From the sequence record MT446416.1: DNA of 64,000 nt; one strand, 5' to 3'. Both the position numbers and the translations under genes were made by a program. The notes under the pieces were generated by a model, which was given only the letters and a program-made list of their open reading frames with translations, did not search any database and had not been told where the DNA came from. This document shows, in pieces, positions 11,463 to 44,279 of this stretch (its first letter is position 1; each line of letters starts with the position of its first letter). The stretch comes from Escherichia virus TH47.

Positions 11463-16718
<5,256 letters not shown>

Positions 16719-19210: not shown

Positions 19211-19417
19211 TCAGTAACCTCCAGTGTTTGCAAACCATTTACCACGGAAATAAAGATTAGCACCTTTATCACCTGGGGTAAAAACTTCCAACTTCATAGT
19301 CTTCTCACCATTACATTGTGGACAATCATGAGGTTCTTCACGATTGGCAATTTTTACAATCTTTTCTAAACTGTGTTTACATTCTTCTTTTTCACAACGA
19401 TATGTATATAATGGCAT
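19211..19417 (-). CDS. zinc-ribbon protein (FmdB-like CxxC...CPxCxG)
   Basis: 68 aa; YTYRCEKEEC...HDCPQCNG. Preceded by a TATAAATAAT element and a hairpin. Confidence 0.5.
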   Translation of the reverse strand: MPLYTYRCEKEECKHSLEKIVKIANREEPHDCPQCNGEKTMKLEVFTPGDKGANLYFRGKWFANTGGY

Positions 19418-19449: not shown

Positions 19450-19482
19450 AAAATTTGGGGAACTCCATGTTCCCCATTATTT
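19450..19482 (-). terminator. hairpin (terminator or attenuator) between the clamp-like and zinc-ribbon genes
   Basis: Minus-strand reading GGGGAACatggaGTTCCCC followed by aaattttt. Confidence 0.4.
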
Positions 19483-19486
19483 ATAT
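19477..19486 (-). promoter_or_regulatory. late promoter-like box TATAAATAAT upstream of the zinc-ribbon gene
   Basis: Minus-strand reading gctaaTATAAATAATgggg, immediately after the clamp-like gene stop and before a hairpin. Confidence 0.4.
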
Positions 19487-24788: not shown

Positions 24789-26417
24789 TTAAGACTCCAC
24801 TACTACGTTAGTCCATACACCATTTACAAGTTTTTGTGTATATCTCCAACTCAAACCTTCAACGTGTGTACCTGAACTACCATTTACTGAAATAAACAAC
24901 CCATCAAGTGTAGCACCTTCAGGTACATAGTTCCAAGAAGAATCAGGAACACTTCGCGTAGTTGTTCTTTTACTTAAACGAACATCTTGTACAGCACCTA
25001 GTGTTAAAGTTACGTTACCGTTTACATCAGCGTTGTTACCGTTAATAGATCTTACGATGTTTTTACTGGCAACAGTTGCAGTGTTTCCAGAAATAGACAA
25101 TGATGCACCAGTAACTGATGGGGCATAAAGTACACCAGATGAGTTAATTGTAACTTCCGAACCACCATTACTTCTCAAACGTAATGTATTTGTTGATGAA
25201 CTATGATAAATTGCTGCACGTTCAGTAGTTCCTGCCGCGTTACGGAAGTAAAGTACCAAAGATGTGTCGTCTGAACGAATTGTTGCACTGTTAGCAATAG
25301 TCAATGAACCAGTCATTACATCACCAGTTTTCAGTACATAACGGGTGTTTGCAACTTTTTCACTCAATGCAACGTTAGACTCAGCAATGTTATATAAGTA
25401 TGCCACATTAAAGTGTGGTACGTCAATATTGCTAATTCCGTGGGTATGTGCTTGTCCACTACCAACGGTATTGGTTGAACCACTGAATCTATGCACGTGA
25501 TCAGGTGCTTCGTTAATGTTATTAATTACAGTTGGAATACCATTATCTCTACTCGATGTTATTGCATTTAGACCACTACGGTCATTACCTTTTAGTGCTT
25601 GGCTATGACCATGACGACCAGCAGCACCAGTAGTTCCACTGAAACTAAATGAGTGCGGTGGAAGTTGATCAATTGATATCGCAGTACCACTAATTGATGC
25701 ACTACTTGCAATCACACTATCAGTTTTAGTTACGCCTGATGTGGTAATGCCTTTCAAGTATGCTTCTTGGTTAAGATTTGGAACTTGTTTAGTGATTGTA
25801 CCATTTTCACCAACCCATTGCCACCACATTCCATCAGCAAAACACCAACCATCAGAAGTTTTCCACGGAGAACCTTGTGAACCATTACGACCACTTTGAC
25901 CATTAGTTGCTCCAGACATCTGTTCACGAATACTAGCAACAGTTTGTCCAGAAGTCAATGAGTACTGGGTAATTGCACCAGGCTTCATTGAAGTGTAAAG
26001 ACCTGTTGGTCCAGTACCGCTACTTGATTGAGTAGGGAATACGATATTTAAATTCGTACCACTAATGCTCGCACTTGGGACAGCACTACTACTATATGTT
26101 ACTGTTTCAACTTTTAAATTCAATTTACGGTTCACTTCATCGAGTGAAATACGGATTGGTTCAAGAATTGTATCAGTATCATATACTGCAATCCAACTTG
26201 TACCGTTGTGGTATTTTAACACCAACTCATTTCTATCAAATACCATAGCACCTTGCTCACCTGCTGGCAATGCCTGTACGGGTAAAATGACAGAAGATGA
26301 ATTAAAACGAATAGGTCTTGGATTAGTTGGTGTACCACCAAGCACTATTAGTTCTAAAGATCCATTAGCACCAGTACTAGTCATAGTATCCAGTGGGTTA
26401 TTAAAACTTATGCTCAT
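24789..26417 (-). CDS. tail fibre-like protein
   Basis: 542 aa, Gly/Ser/Thr/Asn-rich with collar-like N-terminus and His-containing segments (HGHSQ, HVHRFSGSTNTVGSGQAHTHGISN) reminiscent of T4 fibre metal-binding repeats. Confidence 0.5.
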   Translation of the reverse strand: MSISFNNPLDTMTSTGANGSLELIVLGGTPTNPRPIRFNSSSVILPVQALPAGEQGAMVFDRNELVLKYHNGTSWIAVYDTDTILEPIRISLDEVNRKLNLKVETVTYSSSAVPSASISGTNLNIVFPTQSSSGTGPTGLYTSMKPGAITQYSLTSGQTVASIREQMSGATNGQSGRNGSQGSPWKTSDGWCFADGMWWQWVGENGTITKQVPNLNQEAYLKGITTSGVTKTDSVIASSASISGTAISIDQLPPHSFSFSGTTGAAGRHGHSQALKGNDRSGLNAITSSRDNGIPTVINNINEAPDHVHRFSGSTNTVGSGQAHTHGISNIDVPHFNVAYLYNIAESNVALSEKVANTRYVLKTGDVMTGSLTIANSATIRSDDTSLVLYFRNAAGTTERAAIYHSSSTNTLRLRSNGGSEVTINSSGVLYAPSVTGASLSISGNTATVASKNIVRSINGNNADVNGNVTLTLGAVQDVRLSKRTTTRSVPDSSWNYVPEGATLDGLFISVNGSSGTHVEGLSWRYTQKLVNGVWTNVVVES

Positions 26418-26458
26418 GTATAAATCCCTTTAATGATTAATATATACTATATTTATTA

Positions 26459-26782
26459 CTATAGCAAGTCGTTTTCCATATCGTCAAGAACAGAATCGAC
26501 GATGTTCGCTGCTATCTTCTTAGGCATCTTGAACCACTCGGTGTTAGGTTGCCTTACTGCGTTCATTTGTTTTAGTCTTTTGTGAATTTCTTTCTCTGCT
26601 AAACGTGCATCTTCAAAGTGTACTTCATGGTATACCACAAAATCTCTAAAAGGTGTAGCAGTTTGATATGTCCTTAAACGTTCTGTCATTTCAGATTTAC
26701 TGGTAAATCCTATCTTAACATAATCAGGCCATGCATCATTTACTATAACATAACATATCTGTGACATAGAAAATATCTCCAT
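26459..26782 (-). CDS. T5orf172 / GIY-YIG-like domain protein (freestanding)
   Basis: ICYVIVNDAWPDYVKIGFT...ERLRTYQTATPF...EIHKRL...EWF fits the T5orf172 domain pattern. A shorter start (MSQICY, 26767) has a better SD. Confidence 0.55.
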   Translation of the reverse strand: MEIFSMSQICYVIVNDAWPDYVKIGFTSKSEMTERLRTYQTATPFRDFVVYHEVHFEDARLAEKEIHKRLKQMNAVRQPNTEWFKMPKKIAANIVDSVLDDMENDLL

Positions 26783-26806
26783 CAGTAATATGAAGATATT
26801 TATTAA

Positions 26807-27180: not shown

Positions 27181-28179
27181 TTACTTAGTTTTCCATTCTT
27201 TTATCATGGTTAGTACTAAATCCAAATCTTCTTCATTGAAAGTTTCAGTGTATCCATCTGGAAAATCTTCTTTTTCAACAACTTTATTAGTTATAGTACC
27301 TTTTATTTTTTGTTCGAGATCTTGTGCTTCTCTTCGTGTTTCAAAGTCCTCAATTAACAAAACATCGTGTTCAGTATGAGCATAATGTTTTTGTTGACTA
27401 ATTCTACGGTTGATATCATTAGTTACACCCAATTTATAAAATACACCTTTTGTTGGGTGAGTTATTTTTTGTACATATAAAGTTGATGGCTCACGCATAG
27501 TACCTTCACTTTCGTTACATACTGGACAATGTTCTCTATCAGTTTTTCTGAAATTCGCTAGGGTTTTATGTATTTTTACATCTTTATGTAGTGTGCATCC
27601 AAAAACACATTCAGTATGGTGATAATCATAAGTTTCGTCATACTGAAAATCATCATAGGTGTACTTGTCACCATGAATTTTCTTCAACTCTTTCGTTATA
27701 TCATTAGCATCTTTTCGTTTGGAAGAAATCGTTCGTTCTTTACCACACTCATAACATCCACTAAACCTACCTAAAAATTCATCAAATGATAAGACGAAAT
27801 GCTTCTTATGTTTTTTACAATTAAATTCAACATCGGATTTTTTCTTACCTATAAATTTAACTACTTGTACGAATTCCCAAGGTTTGTTCTCATTTGCTAT
27901 CCTAGTTAAACATGCGTGTTTGTATTGGCTGGCAGTTTTTGGGACACTAGTTCCATTTTGTTGTTTCATTATACCACAATGTTGACATTTTTTTCTCGAT
28001 GAAAAGTTGTCTATACTACATGACAATATAGAAGACTTACAATCCCAGCATGTGTATGAAAAATTACTTTTGGCATTTTTAAAATTAATTATTTTATGAA
28101 ATACAATGTTTAAGTTATTAGTTTTTATTATGTTAAGTATCTTATCCACATAATGTTGTTCATCTAATTTTGAAGCCAT
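27181..28179 (-). CDS. putative homing endonuclease-like protein (Cys-rich repeats plus C-terminal T5orf172-like domain)
   Basis: 332 aa with several CxxC pairs, a KKIHGDKYTYDD repeat like that in 7822..8559, and C-terminal YKLGVTND...GYTETF as in 39092..40114. Confidence 0.5.
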   Translation of the reverse strand: MASKLDEQHYVDKILNIIKTNNLNIVFHKIINFKNAKSNFSYTCWDCKSSILSCSIDNFSSRKKCQHCGIMKQQNGTSVPKTASQYKHACLTRIANENKPWEFVQVVKFIGKKKSDVEFNCKKHKKHFVLSFDEFLGRFSGCYECGKERTISSKRKDANDITKELKKIHGDKYTYDDFQYDETYDYHHTECVFGCTLHKDVKIHKTLANFRKTDREHCPVCNESEGTMREPSTLYVQKITHPTKGVFYKLGVTNDINRRISQQKHYAHTEHDVLLIEDFETRREAQDLEQKIKGTITNKVVEKEDFPDGYTETFNEEDLDLVLTMIKEWKTK

Positions 28180-28317: not shown

Positions 28318-29493
28318 TTACATGAAAGTAACGTTTTTGATAGCGATTTTGCTGTAGTAGTCAGCAGCATTACCAAGAGATGAAGTACTGTCGGTTAGCT
28401 GAACGTAGCCATAGCGTGTTAAAAATGTCGTGACTAGCTCACCAGTGTTAGGGTCCATTACAGTACCGGAAGCCATTAGTGGGATGTATGGGCAATAGAA
28501 CACACCAGCATCAGTTTCAGCATTACCTTTATAACCAATCAAAATGTCCTCGACATCGCTGGCATACGTGTCTACAAAAATACGCATGGTGCTGTTTAGA
28601 GTACCAACAAATTTAACGTTAGTTGGAGCTTCGAAAGTACCTTCAGTAGTACGTGCAAAACTAGAAGTAGTTGCAGACTGTAGAATGGTTAGAGCGGTTG
28701 GAGAAACAACAGCCCAGTTCGCAGCACCACGTTTGGTACGACGAGCAACTTCGTTCGCTTGACGGTTGATTAGGGTAGCTAGAGCAGCGTGCTCGTCACC
28801 AACGAAGGTCGCAACACCAGTAACTTTAGATTGGTCATAAGTTACAGCAGCAGCACCAGGTAGTGCACGTAGACGGCTTAGTAGCTCTTGGTCGATTTCA
28901 ACGGTAACTTCTTGAGCGATTGCAGCCATTAGTTCAGCTTCAACGTCGATACCATGTTGGGATTGTGCATCTTGTGCAGATTCAACAGTCCAACGTGCAG
29001 ATAGACGACGAGATTTCGCTTCAACAGTTTCACGTAGAATACGGATGTTAACGCGACGACCCATAGTACCTTCTAGTTGACTAGTAGGAGCAGCTTGTGG
29101 GTTGCTGTTGTCTGCGTTTAGGTCACCAGTATAAGACTTAGCGATTTTGTATGGAGAAAGCATTTCTTCACCAGCGATAACACCAGGAGCGTTGTCAGCA
29201 TATTGAACACGTAGGGTGTGGATCTGACCAACTGGGCCAGTCATTGGCTGAACACCGATGATTTCGTTAGCGATTACGGTTGGCATAACACGACGCATAA
29301 TTGGTAGAATCACTTTGTTTAGAGTAGCGATGTTACCAGCGGTGGTTGCACCAGAAGTAGCAGATTCGTTTAGCATTAGTTTACGATGGTTATCAAGTAC
29401 GGTTTCCATTACGGACTTACGAGTACCTTGTAGACCTTCAACTAGTTTCTCTTTAACTGCTACCCATTTGGATTCATTTAGTAGTTGTGACAT
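28318..29493 (-). CDS. 23: major capsid protein, gp23 family (compact, 391 aa)
   Basis: IANEIIGVQPMTGPVGQIHTLRVQY and VEAKSRRLSARWTVESAQDAQSQHGIDVEAEL match T4 gp23 blocks; TATAAATA about 45 nt upstream; terminator downstream. Confidence 0.9.
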   Translation of the reverse strand: MSQLLNESKWVAVKEKLVEGLQGTRKSVMETVLDNHRKLMLNESATSGATTAGNIATLNKVILPIMRRVMPTVIANEIIGVQPMTGPVGQIHTLRVQYADNAPGVIAGEEMLSPYKIAKSYTGDLNADNSNPQAAPTSQLEGTMGRRVNIRILRETVEAKSRRLSARWTVESAQDAQSQHGIDVEAELMAAIAQEVTVEIDQELLSRLRALPGAAAVTYDQSKVTGVATFVGDEHAALATLINRQANEVARRTKRGAANWAVVSPTALTILQSATTSSFARTTEGTFEAPTNVKFVGTLNSTMRIFVDTYASDVEDILIGYKGNAETDAGVFYCPYIPLMASGTVMDPNTGELVTTFLTRYGYVQLTDSTSSLGNAADYYSKIAIKNVTFM

Positions 29494-29537
29494 TATTATC
29501 TCCTTAAAGATGTTATATTCGTTTTTCAGTATGATAT

Positions 29538-29545
29538 TATTTATA
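29538..29545 (-). promoter_or_regulatory. late promoter box TATAAATA upstream of the major capsid gene
   Basis: Minus-strand reading tttttcagttcTATAAATAatatcatact, about 45 nt before the capsid ATG at 29493. Confidence 0.55.
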
Positions 29546-29583
29546 GAACTGAAAAATTTGATTATTAAAATGCTTTAAAATGT

Positions 29584-30699
29584 TTATTTTTTATTGATAC
29601 CAGAAAGAACATCGAGTTCTTTTAGGAATGCCATATCGTCAGCGGTCATTTCTTCGCTTTCAACAATAGCCTGACGGTTGCCAGTGATTACTTTACCTTC
29701 TGCAAGAGTTCTCTTAGCGGAAGACTGAACTGCTTGACGAGTGGTAGCAGATTCATTTACTTTAGTACCGTTAAGTACTGACTTATGGTACTTGCTGAAA
29801 TCGTCTTTAAGCTTTTCTGTAGGAGAAGTAGCTAGAAGGGATTCCATAATTTGTTTCTGTTGTGTAGTTAGTGGCTTAACTAGTTCAGACATAATCGCAT
29901 TACGAGCTTGTGAATCTTCCATAATACGTAGTTTGGTTTTAGCAGCTTTAACTTCACTTACAGTTTCATTTAGTTCTTTCTTAACTTGAGCAATTTCGTC
30001 TTCTTTAGACTTGATTGATTCAGTTAGGGAACGTAGTAGTGAATTCTCATTAAATTGTTTGACATTAAACTCTTGAGCAAATGCTTCAAAGATTTTACGA
30101 CCAAACATATTTTGTTTTGCTTCAACAAGATCTTCTTTCAAAGCGTATAGGTTTTTCTGAGTAGTTTCTGCAATATATTTAGCAGCACTTTCAGATGTAC
30201 GTTTGATGAAGTTGTTACGTGCTTCAGCAATTTGACGGGAGCCTTCAGCTAGTAGTTTAACGCGAGTTTCAACTAGTTGACGTTTCTCGATGTGGAATTC
30301 TTTTAGCTCTTCTGCTAGGATACCGTTAGAGAAATTAACGAATTTACCCATGCATTCTTGAAGATGCTTACGTTCTTTACGCATTTGTTTAACTTCTTCA
30401 GCCAAAACAGAGTTAGAAAACGCAGAGAAATTACTTAGGGTTTTGCGGAGAGTTACACGATCTTCTACAAGACGTTTTTTCTCTTCATATACTGCACCCA
30501 TTTCTTCAGCGATAACTTGAGTAACCATAGTATTTAGACCTTCGGTTAGCTCAGACAAATCTTGTTTGTAGCGGCCTTTCATTTCTTCACGCATTTCTGC
30601 GGCAAGTGTGTTTTTTTCTTCATTCCATGCTTCCTGAATTAGCTGTTTTGCCTCATCAGAAAGAGATGATTCTTTTAGAAGCTTTTCTAATTTAGACAT
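29584..30699 (-). CDS. 22: prohead scaffold / core protein (gp22-like)
   Basis: 371 aa, highly charged coiled-coil composition; sits between the protease and capsid genes as in T4; TATAAATA upstream. Confidence 0.7.
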   Translation of the reverse strand: MSKLEKLLKESSLSDEAKQLIQEAWNEEKNTLAAEMREEMKGRYKQDLSELTEGLNTMVTQVIAEEMGAVYEEKKRLVEDRVTLRKTLSNFSAFSNSVLAEEVKQMRKERKHLQECMGKFVNFSNGILAEELKEFHIEKRQLVETRVKLLAEGSRQIAEARNNFIKRTSESAAKYIAETTQKNLYALKEDLVEAKQNMFGRKIFEAFAQEFNVKQFNENSLLRSLTESIKSKEDEIAQVKKELNETVSEVKAAKTKLRIMEDSQARNAIMSELVKPLTTQQKQIMESLLATSPTEKLKDDFSKYHKSVLNGTKVNESATTRQAVQSSAKRTLAEGKVITGNRQAIVESEEMTADDMAFLKELDVLSGINKK

Positions 30700-30746: not shown

Positions 30747-30754
30747 TATTTATA
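30747..30754 (-). promoter_or_regulatory. late promoter box TATAAATA upstream of the scaffold gene
   Basis: Minus-strand reading aaaaaTATAAATAtttgtatg about 50 nt before the ATG at 30699. Confidence 0.5.
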
Positions 30755-30765: not shown

Positions 30766-31386
30766 TTAACCTTTTAATTTCTTGAAAAAATCGTAAATTT
30801 CAGAATCTACATTATTTACTGTTTTAGATTCTGTGATTTTTTTAGGACTATTACAAGGTGATCCGTACTTACTCATCAGAGATTCAAAAACCGCAGTAGG
30901 GTATGCCTCTGGAGCACTAGGTTGAGCAACAATATCAATTGTGATAATTTCAAAATCAGAAACTATTCCATTGTAATCCACGTTACCGGAACCACGAGAA
31001 CTTACACCAAGTTTCACACCAGCTTCTAGCATTTTACGAATATTAGTACCATGAGCAGTATCAAGTAGTTTGATTTCTGCCATGCCGTTAGCACCTTCCA
31101 TCCAGACCTTAGTAATCATTGCTGCTACACGGTCAAGGTTAATTGTTAGTGTTTCGGGGTGGTCACATTCAACTAGAATACTTTCACCTTTAGCCAAACG
31201 TTGAGCCATATTATTAACAGCTTTAGTAATTTCGGCTAAAGGGTAAATTCTCTCATTTAAATTTCTTTGGTCGGCTTGAATAGCAATACCACGAAGATAG
31301 CAATCACGCCCACCAAGTCCATTATCACGATGTTCCAAAACAACTTTAGAATCATTGAATGAAGACCATTCACGAATCATACTCAT
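30766..31386 (-). CDS. 21: prohead core protease (gp21-like)
   Basis: 206 aa; VECDHPETLTINLDRVAAM...DTAHGTNIRKML...GVSSRGSG pattern consistent with the gp21 family, in the T4 position. Confidence 0.8.
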   Translation of the reverse strand: MSMIREWSSFNDSKVVLEHRDNGLGGRDCYLRGIAIQADQRNLNERIYPLAEITKAVNNMAQRLAKGESILVECDHPETLTINLDRVAAMITKVWMEGANGMAEIKLLDTAHGTNIRKMLEAGVKLGVSSRGSGNVDYNGIVSDFEIITIDIVAQPSAPEAYPTAVFESLMSKYGSPCNSPKKITESKTVNNVDSEIYDFFKKLKG

Positions 31387-31417
31387 AATGATCTCCTTTC
31401 CTTTTCTTTATTTAGTG

Positions 31418-32224
31418 TTAGATTTTTGGTTGTGATTTTGGTAGTGGAGAGCGAGATTTAGAAGCAGTATTTTTTGGCTTCGCAACATCTTTCATTTCGC
31501 CACGAGCATTTTTACCTAGGTCTTCATCAGTGTGAGACATAGCATCTTCGTTTTCAAAATCATAATCTACTTGTTTTTCGGAAGCTTTAGCGAATTTCAC
31601 TGGAGCAACACCTTGAACTGGAGATTTAGCTTCTGGAGCAACTGGAGACTTGGTATTAACGCCAGCTTTTTCTTTCTTATCAACCGCAGCAACTTGCTTA
31701 AGTTTGAAAGACTCACCAACTTTCTCATCACCGAATTGTACATCAGCAAATTCGTCTTCAGATTCTTCACCATCAGCACCAACTTCAACTTCGTCTTCAG
31801 AACCTAGGTCAACTTCATCACCGCCGATTTCGTCAAACATTTGTTGTAGGCCACGGAAAGCATCTTGAATAGATTCCCATTGGTCTTCGGAAGGAACTTC
31901 TGCACCAACTTCTGCTTCAGCGTCAACTTCTTCGCCATCAGCATCAGCAGAGAATTCAACTTCTTCTTCTGCACTTTCATCTTCTTCACCTAGGGTGTAT
32001 TCGATTTCAGCATTTAGACCTGCGTCGGGTTGAACATCAAAATCTTCGTCAAGTTTTTCTTCGTCTTTGACTTCACATTCTTCTTCGTCCATGCTTTCTT
32101 CTAGTTCTTTATTGATTTCTTGAGCTTGCTCAACAAAGTACTTACGCATTTTTTTATCAGCAACATCTTGTTCGCCGTTTGCAAACGCTTCAATTGCTTC
32201 TTGTAGTAGTTTTAAATTCGCCAT
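31418..32224 (-). CDS. acidic prohead core protein candidate (gp67/68-like by position)
   Basis: Very acidic low-complexity protein between portal and protease. Start moved to MANLK (GGAGGA SD); TAAATAAT motif upstream. Confidence 0.5.
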   Translation of the reverse strand: MANLKLLQEAIEAFANGEQDVADKKMRKYFVEQAQEINKELEESMDEEECEVKDEEKLDEDFDVQPDAGLNAEIEYTLGEEDESAEEEVEFSADADGEEVDAEAEVGAEVPSEDQWESIQDAFRGLQQMFDEIGGDEVDLGSEDEVEVGADGEESEDEFADVQFGDEKVGESFKLKQVAAVDKKEKAGVNTKSPVAPEAKSPVQGVAPVKFAKASEKQVDYDFENEDAMSHTDEDLGKNARGEMKDVAKPKNTASKSRSPLPKSQPKI

Positions 32225-32324
32225 TATATCCTCCATAGATATATTACATTCATATAAAGTATGATATTATTTAGTACTGAAAAATTTCGCCATTTTTAAA
32301 AGCTTTAAAAAGTGCGATTTTTGT

Positions 32325-32555
32325 TTACATTAATCCTGAACCATCACCGGATGGTGCTGCTGCTGCATAAACAACAGCGACAACATTTTTGCGTCGTTGT
32401 TCTTCATTAGCTTTAAATTCACGGTACTTTCTTAAATTATTAAGTACTTGTAATGTTAGTTTTGGTTTTCTGGAATCAGTAATTTTATATACGTTCTGAT
32501 CATCTTCAGGGTCGTATAAAGAATCACTGCTAGATTCAAAGATGTCCTTTAACAT
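32325..32555 (-). CDS. hypothetical small protein (76 aa), possible prohead core component by position
   Basis: Small ORF just downstream of the portal gene; ATAAATAA and TATAAT elements upstream. Confidence 0.4.
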   Translation of the reverse strand: MLKDIFESSSDSLYDPEDDQNVYKITDSRKPKLTLQVLNNLRKYREFKANEEQRRKNVVAVVYAAAAPSGDGSGLM

Positions 32556-32628
32556 TTCATCTCCTTTGAATATGCATTATAATGAGGGCAACTAATGTAC
32601 CCTCATTCTTATACATTGTTATTTATGA

Positions 32629-34365
32629 TTAAAAAGAATCGCCTAAATTATTCGGGTTAAAACCTGCACTTCCTTGTTGTTCTTGGTATTCAGCATCGGC
32701 ACTTTCTAAGTTACCGTCACCATCAATACCCAAATCCATACCAGGATCGTTAGGAGCATCTATACCAACAGATTGCAACCCAGCAGCATCTTCTTCACCA
32801 CTTGACGGAGCGGAACCATCTTGTGGATTTTCTTGGAGCCACATTTGCTCATTCTTAACAATATCAGCTTTAGAGAAGCCCATTTTTTCAAGAATAGTTT
32901 GTTTTGCCATATATGGCAGATCGTTAAGTGGGAGATAGGTGTTAATTAGTTTAGCATCTAGTTCCGCTTTACGATAAGAAGCCAAGTTAATAGGTGGATT
33001 CATAATTACTTCAAAAGATGAAGTACTAATGTTATATCCATTTTTAACCATAAAACGTTTAAATTCTGCATCAAATAGTTTTGCAACCAAACGTTGATAA
33101 CGCATACATTGGTTATTAAAACGTAATTCACTTGCCATTGCTTGTGTTGCACCATCACCAAATAGTGATACACCACCATCATCTGGACCTTGCGGTAGAT
33201 ATGAAGCTGGGATTTGCAATCCACGAATCAATTTATTGTTGAAGTAACGCAAGTCATCAATCTGACCTAAGTTATCACCACCAGGAAGTGTTTGTACATC
33301 TGAACCACGACCTTCAGAAGTTTGTGGGAAGAAGTAATCTTCTAGAATACTTAATGGATTATATGCTGCATCCATTAGAGAAGTACTGCCACCTTTATTT
33401 GAAGGAATACGTCTTTGGTGAATTTCATTTTTGAATCGTTCTACGTATGCCATTGCTTGGTGAGTTTGCATATCACCAACGTCAATTTTAAATACACGAC
33501 GCTCTGGAGCACGTTGAACACGATAGATAATAATACTATCTTCAAGTAATTCTTTTTGTTTATAGACTTTGAAAACATCTTCAAGTATACTAGTACCGAA
33601 AGGCCAAACTCCATCTTGTCCTGTATTTAGGGTTAGATGAATTACGTGTTCTGCACCAACTGGAATAACATCAAGACGACCGTTAGTACTGAATGGGTCA
33701 GCAGAGTTTCCTTGGTTAGTAAAGCCAGATGCACCACCTGCTGCCACTGAACCACCGCCACCTAATGTGGTAGGGATTGCACCAGGGTATGCAGTTTTAT
33801 CAAATCCAACTTGTAAGTTACTAAACACTTTATCTTTAAGATTCAAAGATACGTCACGAATATAATAAATTACAGGGGTTTTTCCGGTTGCTTCGTTAAC
33901 GAATACTTGTTCAACGTTTTTTGGGCTTACCCAGTACCAGTCAAATGTTTCTGGGTCACGAATGAAGAATTGGTCACCGTATTTTAATAGGCCACGTACA
34001 ATTTCATACATTCGGGTTTTAAAATCATTTTGTTCAGTCCATGCATCCAAACGGTCTTCAATAGTAGAAACTTCGGTATCACCAATATCATCTTTGTATT
34101 TGATTTTATATGGAAGACCGAAATCTTCAGTACTTTGTGTACAGAAGTCAGCAATGATATTAAGTGCTGTTCTAATTTCAGGGTCTTGGTCCATCTGGTC
34201 ATACTGACTATAACGTTCAGTACGGTTAGCTAAACCATTGTATACTACTGGAAGATAGGAAGCGAAATTTGATTTCGTTCCTATTGATTTGTTGCTATTA
34301 CTGGACTGATTTGGGACGACCGATAATTTCGATCTCCCCATTGTCATATGTCGTTTCCAACTCAT
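32629..34365 (-). CDS. 20: portal vertex protein (gp20-like)
   Basis: 578 aa ORF upstream of the core/protease/scaffold/capsid genes in T4 order; size and position fit a portal. No single diagnostic motif. Confidence 0.7.
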   Translation of the reverse strand: MSWKRHMTMGRSKLSVVPNQSSNSNKSIGTKSNFASYLPVVYNGLANRTERYSQYDQMDQDPEIRTALNIIADFCTQSTEDFGLPYKIKYKDDIGDTEVSTIEDRLDAWTEQNDFKTRMYEIVRGLLKYGDQFFIRDPETFDWYWVSPKNVEQVFVNEATGKTPVIYYIRDVSLNLKDKVFSNLQVGFDKTAYPGAIPTTLGGGGSVAAGGASGFTNQGNSADPFSTNGRLDVIPVGAEHVIHLTLNTGQDGVWPFGTSILEDVFKVYKQKELLEDSIIIYRVQRAPERRVFKIDVGDMQTHQAMAYVERFKNEIHQRRIPSNKGGSTSLMDAAYNPLSILEDYFFPQTSEGRGSDVQTLPGGDNLGQIDDLRYFNNKLIRGLQIPASYLPQGPDDGGVSLFGDGATQAMASELRFNNQCMRYQRLVAKLFDAEFKRFMVKNGYNISTSSFEVIMNPPINLASYRKAELDAKLINTYLPLNDLPYMAKQTILEKMGFSKADIVKNEQMWLQENPQDGSAPSSGEEDAAGLQSVGIDAPNDPGMDLGIDGDGNLESADAEYQEQQGSAGFNPNNLGDSF

Positions 34366-34377: not shown

Positions 34378-36579
34378 TTAACTGTTTCTCTCACCTTGGG
34401 TGTTTTCAGAGATAGTTCTTAGATAATTATTTGTCTGTTGTACAGCAGATAGTGATTGTTCATTAACATCGGCAAGCTTTTTGAGTATTTCTTTCATTTC
34501 ATCAGAAATCGGTGCTGGTGGACCAGTTCTCGATGTCACTGCACTACCATTATTTATCATCTTCTTAATTGCCTCTGTATCGTCAGGTTTTGGTGGAACT
34601 GGTGGTTCACCTGGTGCCCATGCAGTTTTATCAAAATCTTTACGAGATACAGTTATTTCTGGAGCAACGTTATTTGTTTTTTCAATAACAGGGCGAATGC
34701 GTTCTACACCTGGACGGTTGAATAAACTGTCAGCATAGTCAGATGGTAGTGGTGCTGGTTCTTTGTAGTTACGTGCGGTGTTCCATTTATTGAACTTATC
34801 CCACATTCCTGCAAAATAATCACTAACACTATTTACTCCATTGTCAATGATGCTGTTTACGCTTTCTGCTGGGGTTTCAGTACTGTTATTGAGTTTTATC
34901 TCATTATCAGAACCACCACCGAACCAACTTTTAACAGAATTCCATAGGTTACCAGGTAAATCCATTAAGTTATTCATAAAGGTATCAAATGCTTCTGACA
35001 CTTTAGTGTAACCTGAACCGAATATATCTGCACCCAATCCATCCAACCAAGCTGTAAATTCAGCACCAATACGATCAAGGTAAGCAATTGCATCTTTAGC
35101 AATAGGTACTAACCCAAATCCATCAAGAGCCAATTCCCCAATAAACTCCCATGCACCATCAGTTCTGTCTGCAATGTCAGAAAGATAATCCACAATTGAA
35201 TTTTGTGTATTAGCATACATTATATTAAATGGTTCAGTGAATTCTTTACTAATCCACATATTGAAGCGGTTGGTAAATTGAGTTAATTTATCAGCCGGAT
35301 TATTTTGTGCAGCATTGAATCTGGATTCTGCGGCTAGAAGTTCTTTAATTGCAGCAGCAGAAGCAGCCCCTTCAGAACCACGTTGTTGTTGATAATACAA
35401 CTCCATTTCCAATTCACTTTTATTCTTCTTGGTATATTCCATTATTTTGCGTTGTAAATCAACGGAACTGGTCCCAGATCTAACAAGTTCAGAAACGTAA
35501 TTACTAAGATCGAACAATTCAGGAGCTAATATATCATCAGGAAGTGCTCCAGTTGTGATTTTGGAGTTTACTATGCTTAGAAGTTTTGGTCCAAAGTCAC
35601 CCATTGCTGCGGAAGCTTCAACTATATTCTTTGCCGCAGTTGCTGCTGCATCAGAAGTTAGTCCACCTACATGTTCAAGTGATATTGCAATTGATTTTGC
35701 GTCAAGTGAATCATCAAGAGAACTAGTTTTATTCAACAGTGAATCTACCGACTCACCCATTGCTTTACTGAAAGTGGTTATTGTTTTTATAAATTGTTCA
35801 GTACTGCGTTCTTGGTTAGAACGCTGTAGTAATTCTTTACCACCCAATATTTTTTGAACTTTAATATTCCTAGCAGTGAGATCAATTAGTGTTTTTTGAG
35901 ATATGCCATATAAACCAAGTTCTTTCTGTGCAAGTTGGACATTACCAACTAAGTTTGCGAATGCCATTGTTCCATCGCCATACAACGCACCCAACTGGTT
36001 TACTGCTTGGGCATGAACTGACACTGCCTCAGAAAACTGATCAACACTCATCATCGCTGCACCAGCACCTTTCAGTACTGAACCATAACCTTCAGCCAAT
36101 GCAACACCAGCACTGTTAATTCTGGTGTATACTTCCAATTGTGCATTAAGGGCATTGTATACAGCAAGACCAGCACCAGTAACGAGTTTAAATGCTGCTG
36201 CCGCTGCACCAATTGGACCTGGCATCATTGCTAATGAACCAGCAAATGAGGATGCACTAACGCCTAATGAGTTTACTACAGTACTTACGTTGTTACTGGA
36301 GTTCATCATTGTTTTGCTTACATTAGAAACTTCAGAAGATAGTGATTTGAACAATTTACCAAATGCTTTCCCGTCATCGGCTTGTGCACTTCCACGAGTT
36401 CCACGATTACTGGAAGAACTGGAACTGGAACCATTCTTTTTACTATTTGAACCTGATTTTTTCTTATCATTCTTTATATTTTCAGCTAATAACTCACGGA
36501 TAGCAGTCAAACTATCATTGTTATCTTTAGTTTGATTAACCAACTGCTGTAGTAGGTAATCACTTGTATTGACAGCCAT
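34378..36579 (-). CDS. large Ala/Gly/Ser-rich predicted helical virion protein (about 733 aa); tape-measure-like or internal protein, uncertain
   Basis: Start moved to MAVNTSDY. Poly-Ser stretch, long Ala-rich helical core (GAAAAAFKLVTGAGLAVYNALNAQ...), Pro-rich C-terminal part. Confidence 0.55.
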   Translation of the reverse strand: MAVNTSDYLLQQLVNQTKDNNDSLTAIRELLAENIKNDKKKSGSNSKKNGSSSSSSSNRGTRGSAQADDGKAFGKLFKSLSSEVSNVSKTMMNSSNNVSTVVNSLGVSASSFAGSLAMMPGPIGAAAAAFKLVTGAGLAVYNALNAQLEVYTRINSAGVALAEGYGSVLKGAGAAMMSVDQFSEAVSVHAQAVNQLGALYGDGTMAFANLVGNVQLAQKELGLYGISQKTLIDLTARNIKVQKILGGKELLQRSNQERSTEQFIKTITTFSKAMGESVDSLLNKTSSLDDSLDAKSIAISLEHVGGLTSDAAATAAKNIVEASAAMGDFGPKLLSIVNSKITTGALPDDILAPELFDLSNYVSELVRSGTSSVDLQRKIMEYTKKNKSELEMELYYQQQRGSEGAASAAAIKELLAAESRFNAAQNNPADKLTQFTNRFNMWISKEFTEPFNIMYANTQNSIVDYLSDIADRTDGAWEFIGELALDGFGLVPIAKDAIAYLDRIGAEFTAWLDGLGADIFGSGYTKVSEAFDTFMNNLMDLPGNLWNSVKSWFGGGSDNEIKLNNSTETPAESVNSIIDNGVNSVSDYFAGMWDKFNKWNTARNYKEPAPLPSDYADSLFNRPGVERIRPVIEKTNNVAPEITVSRKDFDKTAWAPGEPPVPPKPDDTEAIKKMINNGSAVTSRTGPPAPISDEMKEILKKLADVNEQSLSAVQQTNNYLRTISENTQGERNS

Positions 36580-36715
36580 AACATTCCCTTTTAATAGATG
36601 TATTATAGAAATATTTATGAATCTATAACGAATAAAAAAGACCCATCTATAACATTTGTCCCATTTTTTGGTAATAAATACTACAGAGACATTTATTACA
36701 TGGAGATTTAATAAA

Positions 36716-37552
36716 ATGGCAATGAACCCACTAGCTAAGTATACTAAAATTGAAGAACTTGGTACAAAATTGGTCACAAATGGCGTGATTCCTTATAAAG
36801 AAGGAGTTCTTGGCTCTAAAGGTATCAAATGTGGCATTTGTGCTCGTAGTGCACGTGATGAAATGACACTCAATACACCAGATATGCTTCTAAATGGTGA
36901 TGCAATTGCTCGTGTTATTGAAAACTGCGTACCTAACGTACTTGATGCAGATGAACTTTATGTAAATGACGTAGAGCTACTACTTATCGCTATTAAAGTA
37001 GCTTCTAAAGAAGAATCATATGATATTAATGTGACATGCCCTGAATGTAACAAAGAAGGCCGTTTTGAGCGTAGCTTATCATATCTACTAGAAACAGCAC
37101 AAACTTTCAGTGAAGTTCCTACTGTGCAATTGGATAATGGACTAAGTTTAGAGTTTAGACCACTTACTTGGAAGGAATATTCTAACTTCGCAGAAAGAAT
37201 GTTTACAGAACAACAAAAAACTAAATTCCTTGAAACTGCCGAAATGGAGCAGGAAGAAAAAGTTAAAGTGTTTGGTGAAGTATTTGAAAGTATGGCACAA
37301 CTCAACTTTGATATGATCGCAGGAGTTATTGCTAAGGTAATTACACCTGAAGGTGATGAAGTAACTGAAAACGAATTCATTTCTGAATGGCTAGGTCAGC
37401 AGTCCAAAGGAACACTTAAAATAATTCGTGAAAAAATGGATGAAGTACTTGAAATTGGTGTTTCCCATACTATGGAAGTTGAATGCAGTGACTGTAATCA
37501 TCAATGGGAAATTAATGGACTGAAATATGACCCAAGTCATTTTTTCGCATAA
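36716..37552 (+). CDS. hypothetical Cys-rich protein (about 278 aa; CGIC, CPEC, CSDC pairs)
   Basis: Start moved to MAMNPL (GGAG SD). Three CxxC pairs suggest zinc binding. Diverges from the 733 aa gene. Confidence 0.55.
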   Translation: MAMNPLAKYTKIEELGTKLVTNGVIPYKEGVLGSKGIKCGICARSARDEMTLNTPDMLLNGDAIARVIENCVPNVLDADELYVNDVELLLIAIKVASKEESYDINVTCPECNKEGRFERSLSYLLETAQTFSEVPTVQLDNGLSLEFRPLTWKEYSNFAERMFTEQQKTKFLETAEMEQEEKVKVFGEVFESMAQLNFDMIAGVIAKVITPEGDEVTENEFISEWLGQQSKGTLKIIREKMDEVLEIGVSHTMEVECSDCNHQWEINGLKYDPSHFFA

Positions 37553-37761: not shown

Positions 37762-38600
37762 CTCACAAGGAGCCAGCACATTGTTGCTGGTTTTTTTTTT
37801 GGTTTTAAACTACAGAATTGATTGAATTGAATTTTGAAAGGAATTAATTATTTTATAGTGAACTCATCTAACTCATTTCATTCGTTAGCTGAAGAATATT
37901 CGTTACTACGTAACTCATATTCATTTCTTATAATTAATTATAAAGAACTTTAAAAGATTTAATACTTGACGGGATTTGTTGAAGACATTTTCATCCCCCC
38001 GCAGGGGAATGAAGACAATAAAAAAGAGACAATTAAGTCTCTTAATTCTTGACGCTGATGGTTTCAGCATTTATTGTATTGCGAATTTCTTAAAATTCAT
38101 TAAGAACGAAAGCGGGTTGCTCTGTTTCTCTCTATCGCAGTCATGTGCAACGGTCGTCAGTCTTAATCATCCTGACACTCACCTGAAAGTCTATACAATC
38201 AAACTTCAGGCTGTTTATTAAATCACTTAATAAACTCCCTTAGCAAATCTGGTAAGGTGCGATCCTTATACATCTATCGAGGAACTCTCTGTATGCTTAT
38301 CGGAGTTCTTTATTGAGCCGTGTCGCCGTGAGGGGTTCAAACTATGCCCACATCTAACGGGTTTCTTCTGCTCATCGCACTGTTGAACTGCTCATCTGCC
38401 ATCTACATTTTCGATAGGATCAGGTTCTAATTTATATGCATTTCTGCATTCAACAGGATTGTCATCACTACAATTAACATTATAGCACCAAATTCAAAAG
38501 TGTCTCACTATTATGGTAAAAAATTTATAAAAAGTACATAATTCTTGTTATCTGAAGTAACGCATAAATATTTTGATAAGAATTAGTTTAGTGGGGATTT
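37762..38600. other. about 840 bp noncoding, iteron-like region with hairpins (candidate origin, regulatory region or ncRNA locus)
   Basis: No plausible ORF (only a 81-codon TTG-initiated ORF without SD). Contains AACTCAT x3, ATTCGTTA x2, TTGAATTGAATT, CTGCTCATC x2, two TTGACG boxes and strong hairpins near 37989-38012 and 38283-38307. Confidence 0.5.
37770..37802 (+). terminator. rho-independent terminator
   Basis: CCAGCAcattgtTGCTGG followed by T11, just after the stop at 37761. Confidence 0.7.
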
Positions 38601-39095
38601 ATGAAGAAAAGATTAAAAGATAGTAAAGAAGCTGCAAACTATCGAAATGAATTACTAAAGAAGCAAAAAGGAATTGATCCTATAATTAAGGAACCAATAA
38701 CTAAGCCAGTACTTGATCACTATCACTTCGAGAATCAACACTGTCGCGGGGTACTCCAGAATGAGATAAACGCCTTTGAGGGTAAGGTTTCCAACGCATG
38801 GAACCGATATGGAAAGCATTTAACTGATATGCCATTACATGAAGTACTAAGAAATCTGGCAGATTATCTTGAAAAGAACAATAACATTCCACCTGAAGAG
38901 CAAGTCATACATCACACTGCACTAACTGTGGATGTTAATAAGTTTAAAAGGCTTCCAGCAACACAGCAAAACGCGATTCTGGAAGGGTTAGGAGTTGTCC
39001 CTGGTAGTAACGTCAAGGAGAGAACTAAGCAAGCCAGAAGGCTCATTAAGGACGGTAAATTAAATATGGTAGATGTAAAAAGAGATACAAAATGA
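38601..39095 (+). CDS. 49: endonuclease VII-like protein (gp49 family), lacking the canonical zinc-ligand Cys pairs
   Basis: LDHYHFENQHCRGVLQNEINAFEGKVSNAWNRYG...LHEVLRNLADYLEK aligns with T4 endo VII HLDHDHELNG...VRGLLCNLCNAAEGQMKHKFNRSG...YLEWLENLLTYLK; 164 aa versus 157 aa. Confidence 0.65.
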   Translation: MKKRLKDSKEAANYRNELLKKQKGIDPIIKEPITKPVLDHYHFENQHCRGVLQNEINAFEGKVSNAWNRYGKHLTDMPLHEVLRNLADYLEKNNNIPPEEQVIHHTALTVDVNKFKRLPATQQNAILEGLGVVPGSNVKERTKQARRLIKDGKLNMVDVKRDTK

Positions 39096-42278: not shown

Positions 42279-42290
42279 AATAAATTTCCC

Positions 42291-44243: not shown

Positions 44244-44279
44244 ACATCAAATGTTCCCTTCTTATGGAGAATCAAAAAG

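What the first reader, a model, noticed from the sequence alone, without database searches (positions are those of the whole stretch)
29521..29560. Recurring late-promoter-like motif ATAAATAAT (T4 TATAAATA variant) with a conserved flanking context
Exact TATAAATA boxes lie 20-50 nt upstream of the capsid, scaffold, lysozyme and first baseplate genes (29538, 30747, 50285, 44236). ATAAATAA(T) variants precede the acidic core gene (32265-32275), the small post-portal gene (32619-32628), the zinc-ribbon gene (19477-19486), gene 11473..12777 (12806-12815), the Ala-rich pair (16723, 16797) and the giant ORF (55487-55496). Three share the extended context tttcagt(a/t)cTA(T)AAATAATAtcatact, suggesting extra recognition determinants. 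This fits a gp55-dependent late programme.
Basis: partly seen in the sequence, partly recalled or inferred. Interest (0 to 1): 0.45.

Follow-up and report, generated by a model that had tools for sequence, protein, structure and literature searches.

The report
T4-type late promoters, jumbo coliphage
The recurring ATAAATA box is a real, strongly conserved T4-style late promoter in front of the virion genes of a Rak2-like jumbo coliphage; it has already been predicted for sister phages, so it is solid but ordinary.

Summary
The window comes from a Rak2-like jumbo coliphage, 98% identical to phages Turkey3, WPEC5 and fEgEco12.

The 8-mer TATAAATA is not over-represented (6 found, 7.9 expected). 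The real core is the 7-mer ATAAATA, with CTAAATA as a minor variant.
- 19 of 21 ATAAATA copies lie 17-109 nt upstream of a gene start, all in sense orientation, mostly before virion genes.
- Density is about 50 times higher in intergenic than in coding DNA.
- In 198 kb of fEgEco12, ATAAATA is the top-ranked upstream 7-mer and is purged from genes on both strands.
- The box is invariant before orthologous head and baseplate genes in at least four genera while the flanks diverge.
- There is no -35 element, and a purine sits 6 nt downstream of the box.

The window also encodes a gp55-family sigma (43309..44148) and a PCNA-fold sliding clamp (19486..20217). This supports the gp55-type late-programme reading.

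The "extended context" is not general. Two promoters share it in full and a third shares only the upstream half. At the capsid promoter it is a conserved inverted repeat with compensatory changes, whose function is unknown.

The CBB paper reported the same motif in CBB and says it was also predicted in GAP32. No transcript 5'-end data were found.

The parts
29538..29545 (-). TATAAATA box (core ATAAATA 29538-29544), 44 nt upstream of the major capsid gene start (29493). The predicted +1 is A at 29532.
   Evidence: The core is invariant in 13 distinct relatives from at least 4 genera and in Vibrio phage 2.275.O.
29548..29556 (-). Left arm (TTTTTCAGT) of the inverted repeat that encloses the capsid promoter box.
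   Evidence: Compensatory changes occur in relatives.
29522..29530 (-). Right arm (ACTGAAAAA) of the same inverted repeat. It lies at about +3 to +11 of the predicted late transcript.
30747..30754 (-). TATAAATA box 47 nt upstream of the scaffold-like gene 29584..30699. A conserved hairpin (TTTGTAT..GTACAGA) follows it directly.
31409..31415 (-). CTAAATA variant box 22 nt upstream of the prohead protease gene 30766..31386.
   Evidence: The orthologous site is ATAAATA in fENko-Kae01 and EJP2.
32268..32274 (-). CTAAATA variant box (ACTAAATAAT) upstream of the core/structural gene 31418..32221.
   Evidence: The orthologous site is ATAAATA in fENko-Kae01, EJP2, GAP32, CBB, XbC2 and Yen9-04.
32620..32626 (-). 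ATAAATA box 64 nt upstream of the small post-portal gene 32325..32555, followed by a hairpin.
36612..36618 (-). ATAAATA box 35 nt upstream of the virion gene 34378..36576. It is one of a divergent pair.
36674..36680 (+). ATAAATA box 35 nt upstream of the baseplate-hub gene 36716..37552. It is the other half of the divergent pair.
38564..38570 (+). ATAAATA box 30 nt upstream of the endonuclease VII gene 38601..39095. Read-through RNA is predicted to pair the ribosome-binding site, and the late transcript frees it.
44237..44244 (+). TATAAATA box 35 nt upstream of the gp48-like baseplate gene (start 44280). It lies back to back with the promoter of the sigma gene.
   Evidence: The box is invariant in 15 distinct relatives.
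50269..50275 (+). Upstream ATAAATA box of a tandem pair before the lysozyme-domain gene 50310..50798. It overlaps the stop codon of the preceding gene.
50285..50292 (+). TATAAATA box 17 nt upstream of the lysozyme-domain gene, preceded by TTTCAGTAC.
51247..51253 (+). ATAAATA box 26 nt upstream of the homing-endonuclease-like gene 51280..51987. It follows a terminator hairpin.
55490..55496 (+). ATAAATA box 36 nt upstream of the giant ORF (true start 55533). It follows a terminator hairpin.
26450..26456 (-). ATAAATA box 32 nt upstream of the tail-fibre gene 24789..26417.
26797..26803 (-). ATAAATA box 29 nt upstream of the T5orf172 nuclease gene (start 26767). The box and the next 7 nt are predicted to pair with the Shine-Dalgarno sequence in read-through RNA only.
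19478..19485 (-). TATAAATA box 60 nt upstream of the zinc-ribbon gene 19211..19417. The predicted +1 lies inside the left arm of the hairpin GGGGAAC..GTTCCCC.
16788..16794 (+). ATAAATA box 46 nt upstream of the virion structural gene 16841..17440.
16725..16731 (+). ATAAATA box 109 nt upstream of 16841. This one is ambiguous: its reverse complement is TGATATTAT, an extended -10-like element facing the minus-strand gene 15643..16629.
12807..12813 (-). ATAAATA box 29 nt upstream of the structural gene 11473..12777. It overlaps the end of the terminase gene.
14503..14509 (-). CTAAATA variant 48 nt upstream of 14110..14454, a terminase segment. This is a weaker candidate.
1609..1615 (+). ATAAATA box 37 nt upstream of gene 1653..2006. 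It is one of a divergent pair within a 43-bp near-palindrome.
1637..1643 (-). ATAAATA box 41 nt upstream of the virion structural gene, whose true start is 1595.
43309..44148 (-). Gene for a gp55-family late sigma factor (279 aa), next to the gp46/gp47 homologues.
   Evidence: phrog_12791 'sigma factor for late transcription', E 4e-152, and phrog_234 (T4 gp55's family), E 1e-16. T4 gp55 hits phrog_12791 in return. BLASTP against T4 gp55 gives 25% identity over 121 aa, E 2e-4. Synteny.
44206..44214 (-). Extended -10 element TGCTATAAT with an upstream TGGGACA. This is the non-late promoter of the sigma gene.
   Evidence: The architecture is conserved in nearly all of 15 distinct relatives.
19486..20217 (-). 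Gene for a sliding clamp with a PCNA/gp45-type fold.
   Evidence: AlphaFold2 pLDDT 91.8. Foldseek matches PCNA with TM about 0.7, E 1e-10. No match at sequence level.

Best explanation
The (A/C)TAAATA boxes are the late promoters of a Rak2-like jumbo myovirus.

Proposed mechanism, by analogy with T4. Host RNA polymerase core carries the phage's gp55-family sigma (43309..44148). It recognises the box as a -10-type element, with no -35 element, and starts about 6 nt downstream, usually at an A. This drives the head, baseplate, tail-fibre and other virion genes, plus a few late nucleases, on either strand. Activation is probably coupled to the phage sliding clamp (19486..20217).

Shown here:
- the position, orientation, enrichment, purging from genes and cross-genus conservation of the box;
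- the absence of other conserved promoter elements;
- the presence of the sigma and the clamp.

Inferred:
- that this sigma reads this box;
- the start-site position;
- clamp dependence.

Its upstream T-run comes from terminator tails. At the capsid gene it forms one arm of a conserved hairpin. The downstream CATAC is the conserved start region of the capsid and core promoters.
For: 1. Nineteen of 21 ATAAATA copies lie 17-109 nt upstream of a same-strand start, all in sense. Fifteen are intergenic, against 3.3 +/- 1.8 expected. The density ratio is about 50.
2. In 198 kb of fEgEco12 (98% identical), 31 of 37 copies are promoter-like and almost all precede virion genes. ATAAATA is the top 7-mer in sense upstream DNA (32-fold, p 6e-28) and CTAAATA is third.
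3. Codon-shuffle test within genes: 6 copies against 23.8 expected in sense, and 2 against 50.5 in antisense (z = -6.6). Most same-composition 7-mers are less depleted (0.4-1.1 of expectation).
4. The box is invariant before the capsid and scaffold-like genes, and kept (as ATAAATA or the shorter TAAATA) before the core and small post-portal genes, in Asteriusvirus, Mimasvirus, Alcyoneusvirus and Eneladusvirus, and invariant before the baseplate gene in 15 distinct relatives, while the flanks diverge.
5. The position matrix carries information only in the 7-mer. There is no -35 element and no TG. The base 6 nt downstream is A in 22 of 31 sites and a purine in 27 of 31. This matches T4 geometry as reviewed in PMC2988020.
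6. No sigma-70-type promoter is found on the gene strand across the head cluster.
7. A gp55-family sigma is encoded in the window, and so is a PCNA-fold clamp.
8. At the endonuclease VII and T5orf172 nuclease genes, the predicted start site removes the 5' arm of a hairpin that pairs the ribosome-binding site. T4 uses the same design for genes 49, e, soc and I-TevI (PMC3014915).
9. The CBB paper reports the same motif for CBB and says it was also predicted for GAP32 (PMC5259590).
Against: - No transcript 5' ends or timing data were found for this phage or its close relatives.
- The sigma is only remotely similar to T4 gp55 (25% identity). It carries about 100 extra N-terminal residues and is missed by Pfam and NCBIfam.
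- No gp33 homologue was found, but the tblastn test used cannot detect even the sigma, so the result says nothing.
- T4's first T is not conserved here.
- One site (16725) could equally be the mirror image of an opposite-strand extended -10 promoter.
- Some boxes precede genes of unknown function, so calling them 'late' is an inference from neighbouring genes.
Confidence: 0.85

Rival explanations
1. The boxes are promoters, but they are read by host sigma-70 as a weak -10-like element, or by a different phage sigma, rather than by the gp55-like protein. Relatives carry a sigma-70-family factor (CBB_513; fEgEco12 Gp519).
For: TATAAA resembles TATAAT. Relatives encode additional sigma-like proteins. 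No experiment links this sigma to this box.
Against: - There is no -35 element and no TG.
- As a sigma-70 -10 hexamer, the box lacks the critical -7 T or -11 A. This argument rests on established knowledge of sigma-70 promoters.
- Clear sigma-70-type extended -10 promoters (TGnTATAAT) exist in the same window, but before replication genes and the sigma gene itself, not before virion genes.
- The scan finds no sigma-70-type promoter on the gene strand of the head cluster.
- Gp519 is absent from phage Ecwhy_1, which keeps the same head-cluster DNA at 98% identity.
- A sigma with region 4 would be expected to need a -35 element.
Confidence: 0.08
2. The motif acts in RNA rather than as a promoter. 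It could be a processing or stability signal, or part of the terminator and leader structures that crowd these short intergenic regions.
For: - Many boxes sit next to, inside or just upstream of hairpins.
- AU-rich single-stranded sites are typical RNase E targets (established knowledge).
- The capsid box sits in the loop of a conserved hairpin.
Against: - The motif is purged even more strongly from the antisense strand of genes, 2 copies against 50.5 expected. Such copies never enter the mRNA, so this points to a DNA-level signal.
- Divergent pairs occur in regions that start transcription units in both directions: 1609/1637, 36612/36674 and the sigma-baseplate region.
- The hairpin association is not general. 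Only 2 of 31 sites exceed shuffled controls.
Confidence: 0.05
3. The pattern is a by-product of AT-rich intergenic composition and has no function.
For: The 8-mer TATAAATA is not over-represented in the window as a whole. Intergenic DNA is AT-rich.
Against: - Dinucleotide shuffles of the intergenic DNA itself give 3.3 +/- 1.8 copies against 15 observed.
- All 19 promoter-like copies are in sense orientation.
- The box is invariant across genera in otherwise diverged spacers.
- It is depleted in genes.
- It ranks first among all 7-mers.
Confidence: 0.02

Closest known systems
Bacteriophage T4 late promoters (TATAAATA at -13 to -6; gp55 sigma, gp33 co-activator, gp45 sliding clamp). Reviewed in PMC2988020; structure in PMC7892883.
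   Same: - A single AT-rich box in the -10 position and no -35 element.
- AT-rich DNA just downstream and a purine start 6 nt after the box.
- The box precedes virion genes on either strand.
- A gp55-family sigma is encoded next to the gp46/gp47 homologues, and a sliding clamp is encoded.
- Late promoters sit inside inhibitory leader hairpins of nuclease genes, as at T4 genes 49 and I-TevI.
   Different: - Only 7 positions are conserved, and T4's -13 T is free (A10 C7 G8 T6 in 31 sites).
- C is tolerated at -12 (CTAAATA), as in the Aeromonas phage Aeh1 consensus.
- The sigma has 279 aa against 185 in T4 and is 25% identical.
- The clamp is recognisable only by its fold.
- No gp33 homologue was identified.
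- Nothing has been tested experimentally.
The predicted 'ATAAATA' late-promoter motif of Pectobacterium phage CBB and Cronobacter phage GAP32 (PMC5259590, citing Abbasifar et al. 2014).
   Same: The same phage group, the same 7-mer, the same A/T-rich downstream context and the same association with structural genes. The orthologous head-gene promoters align directly with those in the window.
   Different: - That work was a motif search in Mimasvirus genomes only.
- It reported no gp45 homologue, whereas a PCNA-fold clamp is found here.
- It did not report the CTAAATA variant, the depletion from genes or the capsid-promoter inverted repeat.
T4 genes e, soc, 49 and I-TevI: a late promoter placed inside the 5' strand of an inhibitory RNA hairpin (PMC3014915).
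   Same: At the endonuclease VII gene (38601) and the T5orf172 nuclease gene (26767), read-through RNA is predicted to pair the ribosome-binding site. The mean probability that it is unpaired is 0.19 and 0.26. The transcript from the box frees it (0.68 and 0.47).
   Different: At the capsid promoter the hairpin does not reach the ribosome-binding site, and predicted accessibility barely changes in any lineage. That repeat therefore does not fit this scheme.

Membership tests
T4-type late promoter / gp55-dependent late transcription | A conserved AT-rich box (T4: TATAAATA) as the only promoter element, in the -10 position. | tested here: met
   ATAAATA is invariant in 31 sites and all other positions carry less than 0.6 bit. 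It is the top-ranked upstream 7-mer. T4's -13 T is not conserved and C is tolerated at -12.
T4-type late promoter / gp55-dependent late transcription | No -35 element. | tested here: met
   No informative column lies upstream of the box. The only upstream signal is a T-rich tract that coincides with terminator tails.
T4-type late promoter / gp55-dependent late transcription | Transcription starts about 6 nt downstream of the box. | not testable with these tools
   Indirect support only. The base 6 nt downstream is A in 22 of 31 sites and a purine in 27 of 31. Hairpin arms at two nuclease genes end where this start would cut them off.
T4-type late promoter / gp55-dependent late transcription | Precedes late (virion, lysis, some nuclease) genes, on either strand. 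| tested here: met
   The downstream genes include the capsid, scaffold-like, core, baseplate, tail-fibre, tail-sheath and tail-tube genes, structural proteins and endonuclease VII. Replication genes instead carry TGnTATAAT promoters. Timing itself was not measured.
T4-type late promoter / gp55-dependent late transcription | The phage encodes a gp55-family sigma. | tested here: met
   Window 43309..44148 matches phrog_12791 (4e-152) and phrog_234 (1e-16). T4 gp55 matches both families. BLASTP E 2e-4. Pfam, NCBIfam and the PDB sequence search are silent.
T4-type late promoter / gp55-dependent late transcription | The sliding clamp (gp45) acts as activator. | tested here: inconclusive
   A PCNA-fold clamp gene is present. 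Its role in transcription and any clamp-binding tail on the sigma could not be tested. The sigma lacks T4's C-terminal LDFL motif.
T4-type late promoter / gp55-dependent late transcription | A gp33 co-activator. | tested here: inconclusive
   tblastn with T4 gp33 found nothing significant in the window or in 198 kb of fEgEco12. The same test also misses the sigma, so it lacks sensitivity, and 47% of the genome was not searched.
Sigma-70 -10/-35 or extended -10 promoter | TTGACA-like -35 element at 16-18 bp, or TG one base upstream of a TATAAT hexamer with A at -11 and T at -7. | tested here: not met
   No -35 element. G at the TG position in 3 of 31 sites. No sigma-70-type hit on the gene strand in 28-33 kb.
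T4 e/soc/49/I-TevI-type leader hairpin containing a late promoter | Read-through RNA sequesters the Shine-Dalgarno sequence or AUG; the late transcript lacks the 5' arm. | tested here: not met
   Not met for the capsid promoter, which is the finding's locus: predicted accessibility is essentially unchanged in 10 lineages. Met in silico for the endonuclease VII and T5orf172 nuclease genes.

The most novel reading that the evidence does not exclude
The capsid late promoter sits in the loop of a sense-strand hairpin: TTTTTCAGT, 17 nt containing the box, then ACTGAAAAA.

Evidence that selection has kept this hairpin:
- It is present in Asteriusvirus, Mimasvirus, Eneladusvirus and Alcyoneusvirus. 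An unrelated-sequence equivalent occurs in Vibrio phage 2.275.O.
- There are two fully compensatory pair changes (A-T to T-A, and C-G to T-A).
- G-T wobbles occur only on the sense strand.

Only read-through transcripts can form the hairpin, because the late start site lies between the arms. It would then be a regulatory structure with no described T4 counterpart. It might set the scaffold-to-capsid mRNA ratio by processing or stabilisation. Alternatively, as extruded DNA, it might help open the strongest late promoter.
Probability: 0.3. Interest if true: 0.45.

Novelty: already known. Interest (0 to 1): 0.2.

Why it matters
It gives a reliable map of late transcription units for a 350-390 kb phage in which most genes have no known function.
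- A gene preceded by the box can provisionally be called late or virion-associated.
- Box positions corrected several start codons: 618..1595, 43309..44148, 55533 and 26767.
- The result extends the T4 late-transcription paradigm (a single -10-type box, a gp55-family sigma and a clamp) to the Rak2-like jumbo phages. It also removes a reported gap, the supposedly missing gp45.

As a discovery it is confirmatory. The motif was already predicted in sister genera and resembles a textbook system.

Tried and rejected
- RNAalifold on a MAFFT alignment of 12 capsid-promoter regions predicted no structure. MAFFT put the left arms out of register, so I counted pairs on a hand-registered alignment instead (two rows, L012 and L020, were corrected by eye).
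- I tested whether 'box in a hairpin loop' is a general feature of late promoters. It is not: 2 of 31 sites beat shuffled flanks, combined p 0.27.
- I tested whether the capsid hairpin hides the ribosome-binding site as in T4 gene e. This was not supported in 10 lineages.
- I considered that ATAAATAATATCA is the mirror image of an opposite-strand extended -10 element (TGATATTAT). Rejected for the capsid site, because the TG/-10 reading is lost in GAP32 and RaK2 while ATAAATA is invariant. It stays open for site 16725.
- I considered TTTCAGTAC as a protein half-site. Rejected, because in Mimasvirus only the two capsid arms change together, while the other TTTCAGTAC-like sites do not follow.
- Pfam, NCBIfam and PDB sequence searches for the sigma and the clamp found nothing.
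- tblastn for gp33 was uninformative.
- Literature searches for 5'-end or RNA-seq data on Rak2-like coliphages found none. PA5oct RNA-seq reports only sigma-70-like motifs. One search was too broad to be useful.
- Only 53% of the fEgEco12 genome was fetched, so the genome-wide figures are for 198 kb.

Full report
**Identity of the window.** The head-gene region is 97-98% identical to Escherichia phages Turkey3, WPEC5 and fEgEco12, and 87-90% identical to PBECO4 and 121Q (Asteriusvirus). It is 72-76% identical to GAP32, CBB, RaK2 and Yersinia phage fHe-Yen9-04. The window therefore comes from a Rak2-like jumbo myovirus of 350-390 kb. The fEgEco12 annotation and PHROG matches identify the following genes:
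- major capsid protein, 28318..29493(-);
- prohead protease, 30766..31386(-);
- portal, 32629..34365(-);
- baseplate genes, 44280 onward (+);
- gp46/gp47 homologues, 40131..43322(-);
- next to them, a 'putative RNA polymerase sigma factor'.

**The observation.** Three qualifications apply.
- The 8-mer TATAAATA is not over-represented in the window: 6 copies against 7.9 expected.
- The 'acidic core gene' site is ACTAAATAAT, not ATAAATAA.
- The full 27-nt 'extended context' occurs only once, even allowing three mismatches. With a 2-nt gap it is shared by the capsid and core promoters. The lysozyme promoter shares only the upstream TTTCAGTAC.

**What the recurrent unit is.** The unit is the 7-mer ATAAATA. 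I corrected several start codons using relatives, ribosome-binding sites and PHROG alignments: 618..1595, 1653..2006, 15643..16629, 26459..26767, 31418..32221, 34378..36576, 36716..37552, 43309..44148, 44280.. and 55533... With these gene models:
- 19 of the 21 copies lie 17-109 nt upstream of a same-strand start, all in sense, and only two are internal to genes;
- fifteen are fully intergenic, against 3.3 +/- 1.8 in dinucleotide shuffles of the intergenic DNA itself (maximum 10 in 300 shuffles);
- density is 5.0 per kb in intergenic DNA and 0.098 per kb in coding DNA.

**A larger sample.** I assembled 198 kb (77-275 kb) of fEgEco12.
- Of 37 ATAAATA copies, 31 are promoter-like. They precede the tail sheath, tail tube, capsid, baseplate, tail fibre and many 'virion structural' genes. 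The 50-kb block of small early-type genes has almost none.
- An unbiased ranking of all 7-mers in sense upstream segments puts ATAAATA first (24 of its 37 genome-wide copies in 9.5 kb; 32-fold; p 6e-28). CTAAATA is third (12 of 24 copies, none antisense).
- The box is therefore (A/C)TAAATA. CTAAATA corresponds to the Aeh1-type late consensus, with C at -12, described in the T4 review (PMC2988020).
- In the window, CTAAATA precedes the protease and core genes and one terminase segment.
- Shuffling codons within genes shows that the motif is purged from coding DNA. There are 6 copies against 23.8 expected in sense and 2 against 50.5 in antisense (z = -6.6). Most 7-mers of the same composition are less depleted, at 0.4-1.1 of expectation.
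- Depletion in the orientation that never enters the mRNA argues for a DNA-level signal, as expected if stray promoters are harmful.

**Anatomy.** A position matrix of 31 sites carries information only in the seven box positions.
- The position of T4's first T is unconstrained (A10 C7 G8 T6).
- There is no -35 element and no TG.
- The two bases after the box are A/T-rich and never G at the first.
- The base 6 nt downstream of the box is A in 22 of 31 sites and a purine in 27 of 31. This is where T4 late transcripts start.
- A T-rich tract 8-12 nt upstream of the box coincides with the tails of terminator hairpins that often precede the box.
- No sigma-70-type promoter is found on the gene strand across 28-33 kb.
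- Clear extended -10 promoters (TGnTATAAT) do exist, but before replication and recombination genes and before the sigma gene.

**Conservation.**
- The box is invariant upstream of the capsid and scaffold-like genes, and is kept (as ATAAATA or the shorter TAAATA) upstream of the core and small post-portal genes, in PBECO4, A4, fENko-Kae01, SE_PL, EJP2, GAP32, CBB, XbC2, Serratia phage BF, Yen9-04, RaK2, K64-1 and several uncultivated relatives. The surrounding spacer diverges.
- Vibrio phage 2.275.O also has TATAAATA before its capsid gene.
- More distant relatives, with 64-69% capsid identity, have only a short spacer and no box there.
- In the divergent region between the sigma and baseplate genes the box is invariant in 15 distinct sequences. 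In nearly all of them the sigma gene keeps a TG(G/C/A)TATAAT element with a TGGGACA, TGAAACG or TGGAACG motif upstream. This is the 'second promoter' class of the CBB paper.

**The machinery.**
- Window 43309..44148(-) (279 aa, start corrected) matches phrog_12791 'sigma factor for late transcription' (4e-152) and phrog_234 (1e-16).
- T4 gp55 is a member of phrog_234 and also matches phrog_12791.
- Direct BLASTP against T4 gp55 gives 25% identity over 121 residues, E 2e-4.
- Pfam, NCBIfam and the PDB sequence search are silent.
- The protein annotated as a sliding clamp (19486..20217) has no match at sequence level. A confident AlphaFold2 model (pLDDT 91.8) matches PCNA clamps with TM about 0.7 and E 1e-10.
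- The clamp that the CBB paper reported as undetectable in that group is therefore present.
- A gp33 homologue was not found, but the tblastn test used cannot detect even the sigma, so the result is inconclusive.

**The extended context.** It has three separate explanations.

*1. A capsid-specific inverted repeat.* At the capsid promoter, TTTTTCAGT (29548-29556) and ACTGAAAAA (29522-29530) form a 9-bp inverted repeat with the box in a 17-nt loop.
- The repeat is kept in every Rak2-like lineage examined.
- It carries a fully compensatory change: CAGT/ACTG becomes CTGT/ACAG in Mimasvirus and Eneladusvirus. A second occurs in one uncultivated relative (C-G to T-A).
- G-T wobbles occur only on the sense strand.
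- The Vibrio phage has an unrelated 10-bp repeat at the same place.
- The hairpin appears in the minimum-free-energy fold of all 10 lineages tested. It is weak: the hairpin alone is about -5 to -7 kcal/mol in most lineages, and whole-spacer folds are -8 to -12 kcal/mol.
- It does not change predicted accessibility of the ribosome-binding site.
- The arrangement is not general: only 2 of 31 late promoters have a flanking repeat better than shuffled controls.
- Its function is unexplained.

*2. A shared upstream segment.* The capsid and core promoter regions share about 55 nt of similar sequence in Asteriusvirus. In other genera the upstream part of the core promoter differs.

*3. A conserved start region.* The downstream 'CATAC', 4-5 nt after the box, is conserved at both promoters in nearly all lineages examined (not in RaK2/K64-1). 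It includes the predicted start site.

**A T4-like design elsewhere in the window.** Read-through RNA of the endonuclease VII gene (38601) and of a T5orf172 nuclease gene (26767) is predicted to pair the ribosome-binding site with sequence upstream of, or overlapping, the box. A transcript starting 6 nt after the box lacks that arm. The mean probability that the site is unpaired rises from 0.19 to 0.68 for endonuclease VII and from 0.26 to 0.47 for the nuclease. T4 uses this arrangement at genes 49, e, soc and I-TevI (PMC3014915). This indirectly supports the inferred start position.

**Comparison with what is known.** The system works like T4 late transcription. It meets the testable membership criteria: the box, the absence of a -35 element, the gene class and a gp55-family sigma. 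Start sites and clamp dependence cannot be tested here, and gp33 was not found. The same 7-mer, with A/T downstream and before structural genes, was reported for CBB (35 sites), and that paper says it was also predicted for GAP32 and likens it to the T4 late promoter (PMC5259590). The fEgEco12 paper does not mention promoters. PA5oct RNA-seq work reports only sigma-70-like motifs. I found no 5'-end mapping for this group.

**Verdict.** The finding is already known in kind. Interest is low (0.2). The one open item is the covarying inverted repeat around the capsid promoter.

Noticed in passing
window 29522-29556 (-): The capsid late-promoter box lies in the 17-nt loop of a 9-bp inverted repeat. 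The repeat is conserved across at least 4 genera, with two compensatory pair changes and G-T wobbles only on the sense strand. Vibrio phage 2.275.O has an unrelated 10-bp repeat at the same place. Function unknown.
   Followed up: yes
window 592-600, 5445-5453, 11388-11396, 11463-11471, 16690-16698, 24232-24240, 38479-38487, 44206-44214 (all -): A second promoter class, extended -10 TGnTATAAT, precedes replication and recombination genes and the sigma gene. At the sigma gene a TGGGACA/TGAAACG/TGGAACG motif lies about 12-17 bp upstream (12 bp in the window, about 16-17 bp in the Mimasvirus-type relatives) and is conserved in relatives. This is the 'divergent RpoD-like' promoter of the CBB paper.
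   Followed up: partly
window 618-2006: The long ORF 618..1829 (annotated in full in fEgEco12 as g383) is really two divergent genes, 618..1595(-) and 1653..2006(+). The PHROG profile starts at residue 79, and the plus-strand ORF is a full-length member of phrog_11637. The 57-bp spacer is a 43-bp near-palindrome carrying two divergent ATAAATA boxes.
   Followed up: yes
window 19486-20217 (-): This protein has no Pfam, NCBIfam or PDB sequence match and falls in a PHROG of unknown function. It folds confidently as a PCNA-type sliding clamp. The CBB paper had reported that no gp45 homologue was detectable in that group.
   Followed up: yes
window 38540-38610 (+) and 26760-26810 (-): The endonuclease VII and T5orf172 nuclease genes have leader hairpins predicted to sequester the ribosome-binding site in read-through RNA only. 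The late box lies within or next to the 5' arm, as at T4 genes 49 and I-TevI.
   Followed up: partly
window 27181-28179 (-) and 39092-40114 (+): Two genes encode proteins with C-terminal T5orf172/MUG113 nuclease-type domains. The gene 27181..28179, just downstream of the capsid gene, is absent at that site from fEgEco12 and PBECO4, so it is probably a mobile homing-endonuclease-like insertion.
   Followed up: partly
window 16725-16735: The ATAAATA box on the plus strand overlaps, as its reverse complement, a TGATATTAT extended -10-like element facing gene 15643..16629. That gene also has a perfect TGCTATAAT at 16690-16698. Which strand uses the site cannot be decided here.
   Followed up: no
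window 19419-19485 (-); fEgEco12 record positions about 252360-252440 and 235280-235350 (inside L090): Some late boxes lie inside or directly upstream of terminator-like hairpins. The predicted late start then falls within the hairpin. This could let late transcripts escape a terminator that stops transcripts coming from upstream.
   Followed up: no
window 43309-44148 (-): The gp55-like sigma has about 100 more residues than T4 gp55, mostly N-terminal to the conserved domain. It lacks T4's C-terminal LDFL clamp-binding motif and ends ...RDDLLEMHGFTPSHTRQIEIEMNMIERKNEDGSI.
   Followed up: no
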